From: a virus
Taxonomy: Duplodnaviria; Caudoviricetes
Direction: 5' to 3' (one strand)
Length of the DNA: 64,000 nt
Virus record (IMG/VR): IMGVR_UViG_3300042350_003801
The translations under genes and the position numbers were made by a program. Below are positions 55,063-63,578 of this stretch, in pieces (positions within the stretch are counted from its first letter, which is position 1; each line of letters begins with the position of its first letter). The notes beneath the pieces were generated by a model. That model was not told the DNA's origin. It searched no databases and worked only from the letters and a program-made list of their open reading frames with translations.

Positions 55063-57079
<2,017 letters not shown>

Positions 57080-57220
57080 ATTTGAAAAAGGGTAGAAAAT
57101 GTTCGTAGGGACGAACGTGATTAATATTTCTTCTCGCCCTTAGAGAAGATATGAGAGACGTATTTGACGTGCAAAGTCTCGGTAAGCACGGGCAGCAATG
57201 TGAGGATTTCCTGACTTGCT
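57080..57220 (-). promoter_or_regulatory. long structured psbA 5' leader (PhotoRC-II-like motif candidate)
   Basis: About 140 nt untranslated with complementary GAGAC...GTCTC and GTTCGT/ACGAAC segments. The family assignment is from recollection of cyanophage psbA leaders. Confidence 0.45.
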
Positions 57221-60151: not shown

Positions 60152-60442
60152 TTACATCCTCTCATTACAAACGATGCGGGAAGTATATTGCCGGCCGTCA
60201 CGGTAAAATACTAAAAGGTCGGAATGTAGCTCCTGAAGAGTTTCATCTAAGGTTTCATATTCTTCTCTTTCAATATAACCAGACTGTAACATCCCGGCGG
60301 CACCCGAATCACCGAATACTAGGAACTTTGATGTTGCAACTACCTCGAAGTAATCATCCTCGTTCTCAAGAATGCCGACATAATCGGCGCCGGAGATGTC
60401 AACCGCAGACCATTGTGTGTTGGCCATTGTTTGCACCGGCAA
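60152..60442 (-). CDS. early-type hypothetical protein
   Basis: 96-aa acidic ORF; GCTG-TATGAT -10-like element upstream. Confidence 0.65.
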   Translation of the reverse strand: MPVQTMANTQWSAVDISGADYVGILENEDDYFEVVATSKFLVFGDSGAAGMLQSGYIEREEYETLDETLQELHSDLLVFYRDGRQYTSRIVCNERM

Positions 60443-60531
60443 CCTGCCGGGGCTGAACTACCCTCTAATCATACAGCATCCACAACCGGAACGGTCGGAA
60501 TAACCGATAAGCATTGCTAATGGTTGAGGAC

Positions 60532-60560
60532 TTGACAGGCTGGGCTGGTTCTGTTATTGT
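60532..60560 (+). promoter_or_regulatory. sigma70-type promoter TTGACA-17-TGnTATTGT (no downstream ORF)
   Basis: -35 at 60532-60537, -10 at 60555-60560. Confidence 0.75.
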
Positions 60561-60566
60561 AGCTTC

Positions 60567-60680
60567 ATACAAGGAAACCAGCGCAAGAAGCGCATCATAT
60601 AAGCGGACACAATAAACCTGCTCGTTAATAATAGCATCTAAAATATAAAGAAAGGCCCGCGATTGCGAGCCATTTGTTAT
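60567..60680 (+). ncRNA. candidate sRNA, copy A
   Basis: Promoter, GCGC-AAGAA-GCGC stem, CACAATAAACCTGC motif and terminal hairpin ggcccgc-gatt-gcgagcc; no ATG. Confidence 0.55.
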
Positions 60681-60697
60681 TCTTATCGGTCAACTCT

Positions 60698-62224
60698 TTA
60701 AGATAACTTAGCCGGTACATTGACCATGGTTAGGTGTTGCTTAGCACGGGTGACTTGCACATAGCAGAGATGATCTTCTTGTGCAAGTTCCCATTCTTTC
60801 TTTGCAAACTTGCTAGGAGAATAGAGATCCATCCCTAGACAGAATACGCGATCCCATTCTCTACCCTTTGCCTTATGGATTGTGCTGAGAGTTAATACTT
60901 TCTGCTGGCCAGCTTCAGTATCACCAAACAGGCTACGAATCTTGCCGACAAGTACACTAACATCATCTTCATCGTCGCATTGTGTCATAAACACCTCTAA
61001 AGTTTTAGCCTTATCGTCTACATTCTGTGCCTTTGTATTATCTTCCTTGGAGATAAACTTCTCAATCTCATTCGCGGCCCATTGCTCCACTTTAGATCTT
61101 AATTTTCCCACGGTTTTGATAGACTTCCATCGCGTAGTAAGTGCAATTAAACCCTCGCCAATCTTGCGTCCTTCAACTTTACAAGCTACCCCTCCTCTCA
61201 ATAGAGAATATGCAAGCGAAACTAGCGGTTTTGTATTACGACAAAGGATAGCATCTTGCCTCCCAGTAAGTTTAACAACCTCGGTCAATTCACAGGCATC
61301 CACTATACCATCGGGAGCAGATTCGTGTGCTTCAATATGATCCACCCACTGATTCGCAACCTGAACTATAGCCTTAGGGCAACGATAAGTCACAGTTAAG
61401 GGTAGAGTTTCCGCATTAAACTCTGACCGAATGTTATCTAATGCAGCAGAATCTGCACCAGTAAAACCATAAATTGCCTGGCAAGGATCGCCCACAGCGA
61501 ATAGCCTACCTGATGGATTTAGCATCATTTTAACTAATGCCCGGCGCGTTGCATTAGTGTCTTGAGCTTCATCCAACAAAATGTTATCATATTGCCAAAT
61601 CTTCATCTTATTAAGAATAGGCATATAGATCATATCTGAAAAGTCTACAATATGAGTAAGAGAATTGCTCACCTTTAGTAAATACTGGGCGGCATCAATT
61701 CCCTGTGACTCGGTTATACCATCTGGCAGAGAATCTAACAAGTTATGATGATCTAGCATTGTCATCCAATTATCTACATTATCTTCAACGATTGCAGCAA
61801 TTCCGCATTCTTTGGCCATACCTGCAGCCGTTGTAACGAATTGGCGCAAAGGTTCATGTTCACCATTAAACTCACGGCGGGCTAATTCTCTTAGTTTGTT
61901 ACCATCCACCTTGACGCGACTTACAGCCCTACGAATAGCACCGAATCCGAAAGAATGCAGAGTGCCAACCTTAACCCTATCACCCAGATTAAGGGGTGCA
62001 ATCTTATCAGCAATCTCTAGGCTAATTGCCTTGTTAAATGCACAGAATGCAACTGATCCCTTAGTTGCATTAACCATCTCAACTAATGTTGTAGTCTTGC
62101 CTGCTCCTGCTACCGCTTCCAGCACAAGATTAGCCCTGGAAGATGTAACAAACTGAACGGCGGCAGCTTGCTGTGTGGAGAGTTGACGGGCCATGGCAGG
62201 GAGAATCCCTAAGTGCTCCGACAT
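60698..62224 (-). CDS. UvrD/Rep-like SF1 DNA helicase (likely start MARQLS)
   Basis: AVAGAGKTTT, LLDEAQD, VGDPCQAIYGF, LTVTYRCP, STIHKAKGREW, YVQVTRAK. Confidence 0.92.
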   Translation of the reverse strand: MSEHLGILPAMARQLSTQQAAAVQFVTSSRANLVLEAVAGAGKTTTLVEMVNATKGSVAFCAFNKAISLEIADKIAPLNLGDRVKVGTLHSFGFGAIRRAVSRVKVDGNKLRELARREFNGEHEPLRQFVTTAAGMAKECGIAAIVEDNVDNWMTMLDHHNLLDSLPDGITESQGIDAAQYLLKVSNSLTHIVDFSDMIYMPILNKMKIWQYDNILLDEAQDTNATRRALVKMMLNPSGRLFAVGDPCQAIYGFTGADSAALDNIRSEFNAETLPLTVTYRCPKAIVQVANQWVDHIEAHESAPDGIVDACELTEVVKLTGRQDAILCRNTKPLVSLAYSLLRGGVACKVEGRKIGEGLIALTTRWKSIKTVGKLRSKVEQWAANEIEKFISKEDNTKAQNVDDKAKTLEVFMTQCDDEDDVSVLVGKIRSLFGDTEAGQQKVLTLSTIHKAKGREWDRVFCLGMDLYSPSKFAKKEWELAQEDHLCYVQVTRAKQHLTMVNVPAKLS

Positions 62225-62285
62225 CCTACCACACTTTCTGCCACGGATGGCCAGCCTGTCAGATAATCCTAACCGATATAATAAA

Positions 62286-62342
62286 GAGCAGGTTTATTGT
62301 GGCCGTTTATATGATGCGCTTCTTGCGCTGGTTTGCTTTGTT
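62286..62342 (-). repeat. inverted copy B of the cassette (47/49 identical to 60575-60623)
   Basis: Direct comparison; TAGAAT -10-like element at 62349-62354 upstream on the minus strand. Confidence 0.85.
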
Positions 62343-62447
62343 GTTCATATTCTACAGCCTTATGCGCCGGTTTCTGGTTGGTGTGTGCCAGTGGTTAAAG
62401 TGTCATCAGAGGCACCCAGAAGCCCTTAGAAGGTGCTACAATACAGT

Positions 62448-62557
62448 GAGACAAGCAAAGACAGCGGGCGAGCCGCATTTATATAAATTGGCACAATAAA
62501 CCAGCCTTGAGATAATAAGATATAAATAAAGGCCCGCAATCGCGAGCCCATTGGTTA
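62448..62557 (+). ncRNA. candidate sRNA, copy C
   Basis: TGcTACAAT extended -10 (62437-62442), GCGG-gcgag-CCGC stem, CACAATAAACCAGC motif and hairpin ggcccgc-aatc-gcgagcc; no ATG. Confidence 0.5.
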
Positions 62558-62989
62558 TCAGTAAACCGTTTCAATGTCGGCACATTGAAGGATACCAGAC
62601 GGTTCAAGTCTGATAGAATCGCCATAATCAGACTTGATGCACCGAATGTTACTCCAACCCAGTTCATATTTCACCGCCCGAATGATAGCAAGATCCGTTT
62701 TCTTGCCGAGAATAGGCACCTCAAACCTCCTATCGATAGTGTTCACTTCACCACCAAATAGGCCATAAACAGTAACCCCAACCGATGGCACTTGTTCATA
62801 GCTGATACTATCAACACAATAATTGGCATAATCTGTTACTGCCTCCACTATATCATCCTCCCTATCAACAATGAATACCTTATTGCTAAACCTTTTATTA
62901 TAGTCTGCGGTTTCTTCTTGAGTGAGTTCTTCATCTTCACAGTCGGTGCTAAAGTCAAACTCAACTTTGGTGATTCTGTAAGCTGGCAT
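62558..62989 (-). CDS. early-type hypothetical protein
   Basis: 143 aa; own TTGACA-17-TATTGT promoter at 63015-63043. Confidence 0.75.
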   Translation of the reverse strand: MPAYRITKVEFDFSTDCEDEELTQEETADYNKRFSNKVFIVDREDDIVEAVTDYANYCVDSISYEQVPSVGVTVYGLFGGEVNTIDRRFEVPILGKKTDLAIIRAVKYELGWSNIRCIKSDYGDSIRLEPSGILQCADIETVY

Positions 62990-63014
62990 TGGTCTGAATC
63001 TGAACGTCCCACTA

Positions 63015-63108
63015 ACAATAAACTGTTTTCGTCAGTATGTCAATGGTTGATTGATAAGCATTACTGATCATTCAAGGGCTTGACATACTGGGTTGATTCT
63101 GTTATTGT
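63015..63108. promoter_or_regulatory. divergent pair of TTGACA-17-TATTGT promoters
   Basis: Minus strand: -35 63038-63043, -10 63015-63020. Plus strand: -35 63080-63085, -10 63103-63108. An imperfect palindrome TGATAAGCATTACTGATCA lies between them. Confidence 0.8.
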
Positions 63109-63114
63109 ATGTTC

Positions 63115-63230
63115 ATACAAGGAAAACCAGCGGAAGAACCGCTACAAATAAGAAGCCACAATGATCCTGCCTTTCATTATTAGAATATAAACAATACAAA
63201 AAGACTTCCGAGTTGGAAGCCTTTATTATA
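63115..63230 (+). ncRNA. candidate sRNA, copy D
   Basis: AGCGG-AAGAA-CCGCT stem, CACAATGATCCTGC motif and terminal hairpin cttcc-gagtt-ggaag followed by TTTATT. Confidence 0.55.
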
Positions 63231-63235
63231 CCGAC

Positions 63236-63364
63236 TTATCGGGCATCGGTAATAACAACCGGCATCGGTTTCTGCGGCCGTTTGATCTCAGCGCCGGGGC
63301 GATAGACTGGCCGCAGTGTAGTAGACGGACGGACAGGGCGAGGAGCCAGAGTAGGAGCAGTCAT
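63236..63364 (-). CDS. 42-aa Pro/Arg-rich peptide
   Basis: Manual translation MTAPTLAPRPVRPSTTLRPVYRPGAEIKRPQKPMPVVITDAR*; TTGACG-18-TAAGAT promoter upstream and a terminator hairpin downstream. Confidence 0.55.
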   Translation of the reverse strand: MTAPTLAPRPVRPSTTLRPVYRPGAEIKRPQKPMPVVITDAR

Positions 63365-63555
63365 CGGAGGTTGAGCGGTTGACTCCATAATCTTACAGCA
63401 TGAACCGCCAGACCGTCAACCAATCGGGGGCCATTGGTCAGAGAATGCTCACACTAGGATGGTTTCATAGATTATCGGTGATTCTATCCCATCCTACCTG
63501 CCCACCAGAATACCACAAAAACCAAAAATATAATAAACCCGCAGACATTAAAAAG

Positions 63556-63578
63556 GCCAGGGATATTAACTCCCTGGC
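63556..63578 (-). terminator. terminator hairpin
   Basis: gccaggga-tattaac-tccctggc with a U-tract on the minus strand, after 63603..63947. Confidence 0.7.

What the first reader, a model, noticed from the sequence alone, without database searches (positions are those of the whole stretch)
60532..63578. Multi-copy, promoter-driven, ORF-less structured cassette: a candidate phage sRNA family
Seen: four related units (A 60567-60680 +, B 62286-62342 -, C 62448-62557 +, D 63115-63230 +) plus a partial fifth (AATAAACCCGC + hairpin, 63532-63578). Each full unit has a -10 (A and D also a perfect TTGACA), a 5' ACAA.G.AAA..CAGCG leader, a 4-5 bp stem with a 5-nt purine-rich loop, and a CACAAT.A.CC.GC motif 13-15 nt later. 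A, C and D then continue into an A-rich spacer and a GC hairpin about 110 nt from the start; B instead leads into the helicase gene. The stem shows a compensatory change (GCGC/GCGC in A and B, GCGG/CCGC in C and D) while the loop and spacers drift, which suggests selection on RNA structure. A, C and D have no ATG after the predicted start and point against the minus-strand early genes. Inference: abundant early sRNAs, e.g. decoys for a host RNA-binding regulator or defence protein (by analogy to phage toxin-antitoxin mimics or RNA anti-CRISPRs). They could instead be mobile promoter/stem-loop cassettes like the PeSL elements of T4-type phages.
Basis: partly seen in the sequence, partly recalled or inferred. 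Interest (0 to 1): 0.85.

Follow-up and report, generated by a model that had tools for sequence, protein, structure and literature searches.

The report
Antisense promoter-hairpin cassettes between cyanophage genes
A lineage of large freshwater cyanophages, including the cultured phages B3/B23, places a conserved non-coding unit between the small genes of one genome region. The unit is a host-type promoter, a covarying mini-hairpin and a conserved box, it points against the genes, it probably makes a short RNA, and gene cassettes are gained or lost by recombination at it.

Summary
Units A (60551-60628 +), B (62281-62358 -), C (62433-62512 +) and D (63099-63177 +) form one family. The "fifth" unit is only a box-plus-terminator remnant.

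A covariance model finds 3-11 copies each in eleven related genomes or contigs (ten IMG/VR, plus cultured Synechococcus phage B3). In each they cluster in one 5-10 kb stretch. There is one copy per intergenic gap, antisense to the genes, except for a conserved sense copy upstream of the helicase.

- **Promoter:** the unit strand keeps TGnTAnnnT. Some copies have TTGACA at 17 nt, others a perfect NtcA box 22-23 nt upstream.
- **Hairpin:** the 4-bp stem pairs in 99.6% of cells, with compensatory changes at three pairs. G.U occurs only on the unit strand.
- **Coding:** the units have no ORF.
- **GC hairpins:** these are the terminators of the upstream genes, with weaker U-tails in the unit direction.
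- **Recombination:** one relative carries a chimeric unit exactly where a gene plus one unit is missing.

There is no Rfam family, and no RNA data could be found.

Best reading: autonomous antisense non-coding transcription units that punctuate an ORFan cassette array, related in role to T4 PeSLs but built differently. What the RNA does is unproven, and the decoy idea was not tested.

The parts
60532..60560 (+). Unit A promoter: TTGACA, 17 nt, TGnTATTGT. The predicted start is near 60567.
60551..60628 (+). Unit A core: -10, A-rich leader, stem-loop 60581-60593 (GCGC/AAGAA/GCGC), box CACAATAAACCTGC at 60608-60621.
60644..60671 (.). Invariant TATAAA (60644-60649), then an A-tract, then hairpin 60654-60671. 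The hairpin is the minus-strand terminator of the helicase gene. On the plus strand it has a T-rich tail (6 of 9), so it may work in both directions.
60698..62194 (-). UvrD/Rep-type helicase gene. The ORF caller starts it at 62224, but that ATG overlaps the proximal -10, so the start is probably the ATG at 62194.
62223..62231 (-). Proximal helicase promoter, TGGTAGGAT (extended -10). It has the same position and form as in the relatives (TGCTACACT).
62281..62358 (-). Unit B, the sense-oriented copy: -10 TAGAAT at 62354-62349, stem-loop at 62328-62316, box at 62301-62291. No hairpin follows, and it reads into the helicase leader.
62433..62512 (+). Unit C core: TGCTACAAT (-10 at 62437-62442), stem-loop 62464-62476 (GCGG/GCGAG/CCGC), box at 62492-62505. 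It lies back to back with B. A degenerate NtcA-like GTC-N8-CAC at 62402-62415 sits 21 nt from the -10.
62521..62549 (.). TATAAA (62521-62526), then hairpin 62530-62549, which is the minus-strand terminator of the 143-aa gene.
62558..62989 (-). 143-aa ORFan (phrog_2460, unknown function). Paralogues and orthologues recur between units in the relatives (family f00).
63015..63043 (-). Gene-strand promoter of the 143-aa gene (TTGACA, 17 nt, TATTGT). It is divergent from unit D's promoter, and both begin TTGACATACTG.
63080..63177 (+). Unit D: TTGACA at 63080-63085, TGnTATTGT ending at 63108, stem-loop 63130-63142 (GCGG/AAGAA/CCGC), box at 63157-63170.
63186..63224 (.). TATAAA (63186-63191), then hairpin 63200-63224. 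The hairpin is called as a terminator on both strands.
63532..63578 (.). Remnant only: ATAATAAACCCGC plus the minus-strand terminator 63556-63578 of the Kyano_Gp96-like gene. It is not a full unit.

Best explanation
Each unit is an autonomous, non-coding transcription unit read by the host RNA polymerase against the direction of the genes. It sits in the spacer between two independently transcribed small ORFan genes.

In the gene direction, the spacer reads:
1. stop codon;
2. strong terminator hairpin;
3. TATAAA;
4. the unit core, antisense;
5. the unit's promoter;
6. the next gene's own promoter and short leader.

The unit's promoter is therefore the divergent partner of the downstream gene's promoter. 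Its transcript runs 105-130 nt into the upstream gene's terminator.

The RNA has a constant 5' part: an A-rich leader, a 4-bp GC hairpin with a purine-rich loop, and a CCUGC box. I infer this part is a handle for a common protein. Its 3' part is gene-specific and is complementary to the 3' end of the upstream mRNA.

Inferred role: cassette-by-cassette control. The unit may act by convergent transcription at the shared terminator, by 3'-overlap antisense action on the neighbouring mRNA, or by both. Its input comes from the promoter class, either sigma-70 -35 or NtcA.

Independently of any RNA function, the repeats are substrates for homologous recombination that adds and removes gene cassettes.

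Shown here: family, placement, promoter architecture, stem covariation, absence of coding, and the recombinant junction. Inferred: that the RNA is made, its length, its protein partner and its regulatory effect.
For: - **Family size and clustering.** 81 copies in 12 genomes or contigs, confined to one cluster per genome. The complete 249.8-kb genome G006 has 8 copies, all at 81.4-87.3 kb.
- **Placement.** One copy per intergenic gap, antisense to the genes. This is confirmed against the depositors' annotation of phage B3. B3 has 352 of its 370 CDS on the other strand (PMC7171214).
- **-10 element.** The unit strand keeps TAnnnT in every subclass, often with TGn, whereas the opposite strand keeps nothing comparable.
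- **Upstream elements.** TTGACA at 17 nt in some copies. In other copies a perfect GTA-N8-TAC lies 22-23 nt upstream of the -10, which is the canonical geometry of NtcA-activated promoters (geometry from PMC3898017). About 18 of the 33 such boxes in 90 kb sit exactly there.
- **Genes have their own promoters.** These are proximal, 25-35 nt before the ATG, so the core is not a gene leader.
- **Stem.** 99.6% of 271 cells are paired. GC/AU/GU counts are 37/23/8 at pair 1 and CG/GC counts are 35/31 at pair 4. No A.C cell occurs, so wobble pairs appear only on the unit strand.
- **Non-coding.** The median longest frame is 3 codons.
- **Terminators.** The hairpins sit 10-20 nt after the stop codons. 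Their tails have a median of 7 of 9 T in the gene direction and 4 of 9 in the unit direction.
- **Recombinant unit.** L055:3310 matches the 3' flank of L054:5531 and the 5' flank of L054:6238. The crossover lies inside the core, exactly where a 162-aa gene plus one unit is absent.
Against: - No transcript data of any kind exist. Only lake-water DNA runs hold the sequence.
- Only one 4-bp helix is conserved, which is little structure for an sRNA.
- U-tails after the hairpins in the unit direction are often poor. Many copies may therefore read through as long antisense RNAs rather than end at about 120 nt.
- Strong gene-direction terminators make an insulator role partly redundant.
- Where the unit and the downstream gene both carry NtcA boxes, the unit fires together with that gene. 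This fits a guard function poorly.
- The invariant TATAAA and the lineage-specific box remain unexplained.
- Conservation could be kept up by gene conversion among repeats rather than by selection on an RNA.
- The strand bias of the wobble pairs rests on about four independent events.
Confidence: 0.45

Rival explanations
1. The units are punctuation and recombination cassettes with no RNA-specific function. They would be the local equivalent of T4-type PeSLs. The repeated promoter-terminator block separates ORFan cassettes and supplies homology for shuffling. Its sequence is kept uniform by gene conversion, and the antisense promoter is a by-product or a selfish feature.
For: - A chimeric unit lies at a one-gene indel.
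- Gene order between units is mosaic among the relatives.
- The flanking genes are ORFans.
- Box variants are shared by all copies of a genome, as concerted evolution would produce.
- The description and proven roles of PeSLs are in PMC2839356.
Against: - Homology alone does not explain why a 4-bp stem keeps pairing through GC, GU, AU and CG/GC exchanges inside single genomes.
- It does not explain the retention of TAnnnT with TGn, TTGACA or correctly spaced NtcA boxes on the antisense strand.
- It does not explain conservation of the core across helicase divergence of 30-40%.
- The units occupy one cluster only, not all variable regions.
Confidence: 0.2
2. The units encode a trans-acting sRNA family. 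The RNAs would be abundant and would titrate a host or phage RNA-binding protein, or a defence factor, through the hairpin and the CCUGC box.
For: - Many copies share a constant handle.
- The hairpin is of the size that binds protein, with a purine-rich loop.
- The box changes in step across all copies of a genome, as expected for co-evolution with one partner.
- The units are non-coding.
Against: - No partner is known and no RNA data exist.
- The strict placement, one copy per spacer, antisense and abutting a terminator, is not required of a decoy.
- No further box copies or complements occur elsewhere in the window above chance.
- There is no Rfam or CRISPR-repeat resemblance.
Confidence: 0.15
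3. The units are promoters for long antisense RNAs. The hairpins would terminate poorly in the unit direction, so each unit would start an antisense transcript across the upstream gene or genes. That transcript could silence them by interference or duplex cleavage, or shield them from RNase E. The sense-oriented copy would instead boost the helicase.
For: - T-tails in the unit direction are weak in many copies (median 4 of 9, some 2-3 of 9).
- A conserved sense copy lies upstream of the helicase in three lineages.
- Long antisense RNAs that protect mRNAs from RNase E during cyanophage infection are documented for host genes (PMC3113571).
Against: - Several copies have good bidirectional terminators (T 6-7 of 9, or A/T-extended stems).
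- The idea does not explain the conserved leader, hairpin and box.
Confidence: 0.1
4. The units have other cis roles. One possibility is a nut-like site, with a boxB-type hairpin that loads an antiterminator. Another is a promoter plus an AT-rich unwinding stretch that forms R-loop primers for replication, as at T4 ori(uvsY) and ori(34). A third is a single-strand DNA hairpin recognised by a recombinase.
For: - A short GC stem with a 4-5 nt purine loop lies near the 5' end, followed by a terminator.
- An almost pure AT stretch of 30-40 bp lies downstream of the core.
- A helicase gene sits inside the cluster.
Against: - No N-like, integrase or replication-initiator gene was identified.
- Loop sequences are not GNRA-like in most copies.
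- Eight to eleven origins in 6-10 kb is implausible.
- There is no downstream operon on the unit strand to antiterminate into.
Confidence: 0.05

Closest known systems
PeSL cassettes (promoter-early stem-loops) of T4-type phages (Arbiol et al. 2010, PMC2839356; Comeau et al. 2014, PMC4122927)
   Same: Both are repeated intergenic cassettes that combine a host sigma-70-type promoter with a terminator stem-loop. Both flank ORFans in a variable early region, and both serve as crossover points for gain and loss of single genes.
   Different: - In PeSLs the promoter faces the downstream gene, and the cassette runs from a stop codon to the Shine-Dalgarno sequence and start of the next gene. Here the repeated promoter is antisense, and the genes have separate promoters.
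- Here an extra ~60-nt conserved core follows the promoter, with a covarying mini-hairpin, a CCTGC box and TATAAA.
- Some copies here are NtcA-type.
- Copies occupy one cluster rather than many regions.
- Mini-circles were not shown here.
3'-overlapping antisense RNAs that share a bidirectional terminator with their target (B. subtilis type I pairs txpA/RatA and bsrG/SR4; own knowledge)
   Same: In both, a small non-coding RNA is transcribed convergently to a gene, the two share a terminator, and the RNA is complementary to the mRNA 3' end.
   Different: - The neighbours here are diverse proteins of 50-240 aa, not small hydrophobic toxins.
- The overlap may be only the terminator.
- The RNA carries a constant 5' handle repeated at every gene.
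- No effect on the mRNA has been shown.
Canonical NtcA-activated cyanobacterial promoters (GTA-N8-TAC centred near -41.5; PMC3898017)
   Same: A subset of units in the relatives has a perfect box 22-23 nt upstream of a TAnnnT -10. One spacer has a second box serving the divergent gene promoter.
   Different: The four window copies lack a canonical box. C has only GTC-N8-CAC. Binding was not tested. In these relatives the box drives a non-coding antisense unit of a phage.
Lambda-type nut sites (boxA/boxB)
   Same: Both have a short GC stem with a purine-rich 4-5 nt loop near the 5' end of a transcript that soon meets a terminator.
   Different: The stem here is 4 bp, not 5. The loops are mostly not GNRA-like. 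No boxA was seen and no N-like protein was identified, and there is no operon downstream on that strand.

Membership tests
PeSL (T4-type promoter-early stem-loop cassette) | The repeated sigma-70-like promoter faces and drives the downstream ORF, followed by that ORF's Shine-Dalgarno sequence and start codon. | tested here: not met
   The repeated promoter is on the strand opposite to the genes in 40 of the 44 copies first aligned. The genes use separate proximal promoters. PeSL definition.
PeSL (T4-type promoter-early stem-loop cassette) | A stem-loop terminates transcription coming from upstream. | tested here: met
   Hairpins followed by T-runs lie 10-20 nt after the stop codons on the gene strand. 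Termination activity was not assayed.
PeSL (T4-type promoter-early stem-loop cassette) | Many copies flank ORFans in hyperplastic regions and mediate indels by recombination between copies. | tested here: met
   The flanking genes are ORFans. Gene order is mosaic, and a chimeric unit lies at a one-gene indel. Copies occur in only one region per genome.
Any Rfam family, including RsmY and the CRISPR direct-repeat families | A score at or above the family's gathering threshold. | tested here: not met
   No hit in the units at gathering score. RsmY scores 25.9 bits against 57 on unit A only. Nothing appears at E up to 0.1 in the relatives L053 and L076.
NtcA-activated promoter | GTA-N8-TAC lies about 22 nt upstream of a TAnnnT -10. 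| tested here: not met
   For the four window units there is no canonical box; C has GTC-N8-CAC at 21 nt. The feature is met in about 18 copies of the relatives, with six distinct box sequences.
Intrinsic (rho-independent) terminator acting in the unit direction | A GC-rich hairpin is followed directly by a U-rich tail on the unit strand. | tested here: inconclusive
   The median is 4 of 9 T, with a range of 1-7. A has 6 of 9, C has 4 of 9, and D is called on both strands.
Lambda nut/boxB antitermination site | A 5-bp stem with a GNRA-like pentaloop, boxA upstream, and a cognate arginine-rich protein. | tested here: not met
   The stem is 4 bp. The loops are AAGG, AGGA, AGGG, GGGCG, AAAA and AAGAA. 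No boxA was seen. The nine window ORFs scanned against Pfam gave no match beyond the helicase and a Kyano_Gp96 domain, and a short Pro/Arg-rich ORF is of doubtful reality.
Type I toxin-antitoxin 3'-overlap antisense RNA | The target is a small hydrophobic toxin whose mRNA is destabilised by the antisense RNA. | not tested
   The neighbouring genes are heterogeneous ORFans of 50-240 aa. No toxicity or RNA data exist.

The most novel reading that the evidence does not exclude
A new class of phage regulatory RNA gene that travels with gene cassettes. Each ORFan cassette would carry a divergent, condition-tuned promoter (sigma-70 or NtcA) for a short antisense-oriented RNA. That RNA would join a constant protein-binding handle (mini-hairpin plus CCUGC box) to a gene-specific 3' tail complementary to the neighbouring mRNA. 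The phage would thus have a modular, per-gene post-transcriptional control layer that responds to nitrogen status in its early variable region.
Probability: 0.2. Interest if true: 0.8.

Novelty: new variant of a known kind. Interest (0 to 1): 0.6.

Why it matters
Variable early regions of large phages hold most of their unknown genes, and how those genes are regulated and exchanged is poorly understood. This region shows a conserved, non-coding, antisense-facing unit at almost every gene boundary. It has clear host-promoter logic, including nitrogen-responsive NtcA sites, a hairpin under pairing selection, and direct evidence that cassettes are exchanged at it. If the RNA is made and acts on its neighbours, it would be a new regulatory layer in cyanophages and a link between host nutrient status and expression of phage accessory genes. 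The family is present in the cultured phages B3/B23, so the question can be answered with standard transcript mapping and mutagenesis.

Tried and rejected
- **Loose pattern scan of IMG/VR**: 44 single matches, judged chance hits (one per contig; not checked with a model).
- **18-nt window-lineage pattern in metagenome contigs**: swamped by chance hits. None of 80 loci matched model R1. No close relative of the window's own lineage was recovered.
- **RNA evidence:** two run searches listed only lake-water DNA runs. Laying four DNA runs gave short low-depth contigs. One contig joins 63065 to 60580, but this cannot be told apart from a paralogous copy.
- **Peptide on the gene strand of the core:** rejected. 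The ATG seen in most relatives is missing in many copies, and the window copies differ in frame.
- **The core as a 5' leader of the downstream gene:** rejected, because gene promoters lie between the unit and the ATG.
- **A second helix, or pairing between the loop and the CCUGC box:** no covariation support.
- **TATAAA as a T4-type late promoter:** only copy C reads TATAAATA.
- **TATAAA as a gene-strand -10:** it has no TGn and no -35.
- **RsmY likeness:** not shared by the family.
- **Protein clues:** Pfam, PHROGs and Atlas gave no function for the neighbouring ORFs.


Full report
**What is in the window**

Positions 58-64 kb carry minus-strand genes:
- a UvrD/Rep-type helicase (60698-62224 as called, Pfam E 5e-23);
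- a Kyano_Gp96-like protein;
- several ORFans.

The window is a cyanophage. It has a PhotoRC-II element and four group I introns at 55.1-57.2 kb. Its only DNA-level relatives among deposited phages are Synechococcus phages B3 and B23, at 64% identity over part of the helicase gene. No whole genome is held for it. The stretch occurs in lake-water metagenomes.

**The observation**

Units A, B, C and D align over about 80 nt at 79% mean column identity. A and B are 92% complementary over 60 nt as an inverted repeat.

The GC hairpins that end A, C and D are the intrinsic terminators of the upstream minus-strand genes. Each lies 10-30 nt after a stop codon and has a T-run on the minus strand.

The "fifth" unit shares only a box-like ATAATAAACCCGC and a terminator. 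Neither model detects it.

**The family beyond the window**

The helicase protein recovered six IMG/VR loci at 60-68% identity. A covariance model built from the four window units found many copies in them.

After one round of model refinement and a motif scan, I counted 81 copies in 12 genomes or contigs. Six or seven of these are in cultured phage B3.

Copies are confined to one 5-10 kb stretch per genome. In the complete 249.8-kb genome G006, all eight lie at 81.4-87.3 kb.

Every copy is intergenic, with one per gap, and lies on the strand opposite to the genes. The depositors' annotation of B3 confirms this. In that genome 352 of 370 CDS share one strand.

The single exception is a sense-oriented copy just upstream of the helicase. 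It is paired back to back with an antisense copy, and it is conserved in the window, G001 and G005.

**Which strand matters**

The unit strand keeps TAnnnT at the same place in all subclasses (TATACT, TAGACT, TAGGAT, TATTGT, TACAAT, TAGAAT, TATAAT). TGn often precedes it.

The upstream sequences fall into classes:
- TTGACA at 17 nt (window A and D, and several relatives);
- a perfect GTA-N8-TAC box 22-23 nt upstream of the -10, which is the geometry of NtcA-activated promoters (PMC3898017), with six distinct box sequences;
- others.

About 18 of the 33 such boxes in 90 kb sit exactly at that spacing.

The genes have their own promoters of the same TGnTAnnnT type 25-35 nt before their ATG, followed by short leaders. 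The helicase is an example: TGGTAGGAT at 62223-62231, which makes the ATG at 62194 the likely start. The unit core is therefore not a gene leader.

In one spacer shared by seven relatives, a second NtcA box lies 22 nt from the gene's -10. There the two divergent promoters are of one class. In window spacer D, both divergent promoters begin TTGACATACTG.

**The hairpin**

Across 68 distinct sequences the 4-bp stem pairs in 99.6% of cells.
- Pair 1: GC 37, AU 23, GU 8.
- Pair 4: CG 35, GC 31, AU 1.
- No shuffle reaches the covariation score.

Different stem versions coexist within one genome, so it is pairing that is conserved, not a protein half-site.

All wobble pairs are G.U on the unit strand and none is A.C. 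This favours an RNA, or a single strand, of the unit's polarity. It rests on about four independent events.

No other helix is supported. The loop is purine-rich and 4-5 nt long.

The units are non-coding. The median longest frame is 3 codons, and 72 of 81 copies have no ATG frame of 5 codons or more.

**Downstream of the core**

An invariant TATAAA follows the CCTGC box by 14-16 nt. An A-tract and the hairpin come next.

Tails are T-rich in the gene direction (median 7 of 9) and weaker in the unit direction (median 4 of 9, range 1-7). The predicted RNA would be about 119 nt if it stops there, but read-through is plausible for many copies.

**Recombination**

Gene order between units is mosaic among the relatives. 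In L055, one unit stands where L054 has unit, 162-aa gene, unit. It matches the left L054 copy from the terminator through the hairpin loop, and the right copy from the -35 outward. The two L054 copies are identical over about 55 nt between the hairpin loop and the -35, and the switch lies within that stretch. This is the signature of homologous exchange between direct repeats, as described for PeSLs (PMC2839356).

**Comparison and verdict**

The units work like PeSLs as punctuation and crossover points, but they fail the PeSL definition because the repeated promoter is antisense. They also carry an extra conserved core.

No Rfam family fits. The genome note on B3/B23 does not mention them. 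My literature searches found no description.

I could obtain no RNA data. Transcription, RNA length and function therefore remain inferred.

My best reading, at confidence 0.45, is a family of autonomous antisense non-coding transcription units that act in cis on neighbouring cassettes and double as recombination sites. The main rivals are a function-less punctuation cassette, a trans-acting decoy and long antisense RNAs.

Noticed in passing
window 55130-57203 (-): Rfam calls four group I introns in tandem (55130-56910) and a PhotoRC-II element at 57116-57203.
   Followed up: no
window 62192-62231 (-) and 60425-60473 (-): Gene starts look mis-called by plain ORF listing. The helicase ATG at 62224 overlaps its own -10 (TAGGAT at 62228-62223), so 62194 is the likelier start. 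The 96-aa ORF probably starts at the ATG at 60427, behind a TATGAT -10 at 60473-60468.
   Followed up: partly
window 60506-60521 and 63053-63068; relatives, e.g. upstream of L053:4667: A conserved GATAAGCAnnnCTnAT box lies between the two divergent promoters of a spacer, in the window and in the relatives. In some relatives it forms a GCTTAT-N7-ATAAGC palindrome. It is a candidate operator for an unknown regulator.
   Followed up: no
L054:7585-7655, L055:1971-2041, L056:5370-5450, L057:1417-1497 and orthologues: Two perfect NtcA boxes lie 57-67 nt apart in one spacer. Each sits 22 nt from a -10 on opposite strands, which makes a divergent pair of nitrogen-responsive promoters in an uncultured cyanophage lineage.
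   Followed up: partly
window 60644-60649, 62521-62526, 63186-63191; about 40 of 44 copies overall: TATAAA is invariant at a fixed distance after the CCTGC box. In the relatives a GTATAA motif recurs in many terminator loops. No explanation fits well.
   Followed up: partly
window 63065 joined to 60580 (run X8): One low-depth metagenome contig joins the region upstream of unit D to the core of unit A. It could be a circle, a duplication, another gene order, or a paralogous copy beyond the window.
   Followed up: no
L053:5198, L053:9116, L054:3241, L056:1915, L057:4516: A subclass of units has a 25-30 nt insertion in the leader that can form an extra AAGG/CCUU hairpin. In these copies the -10 lies further upstream (TGCTAGACT or TGCTAGGAT).
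   Followed up: no
window 63236-63388 (-): The 50-aa ORF between units is very Pro/Arg-rich and has no homologue in the libraries searched. It may not be a real gene.
   Followed up: no
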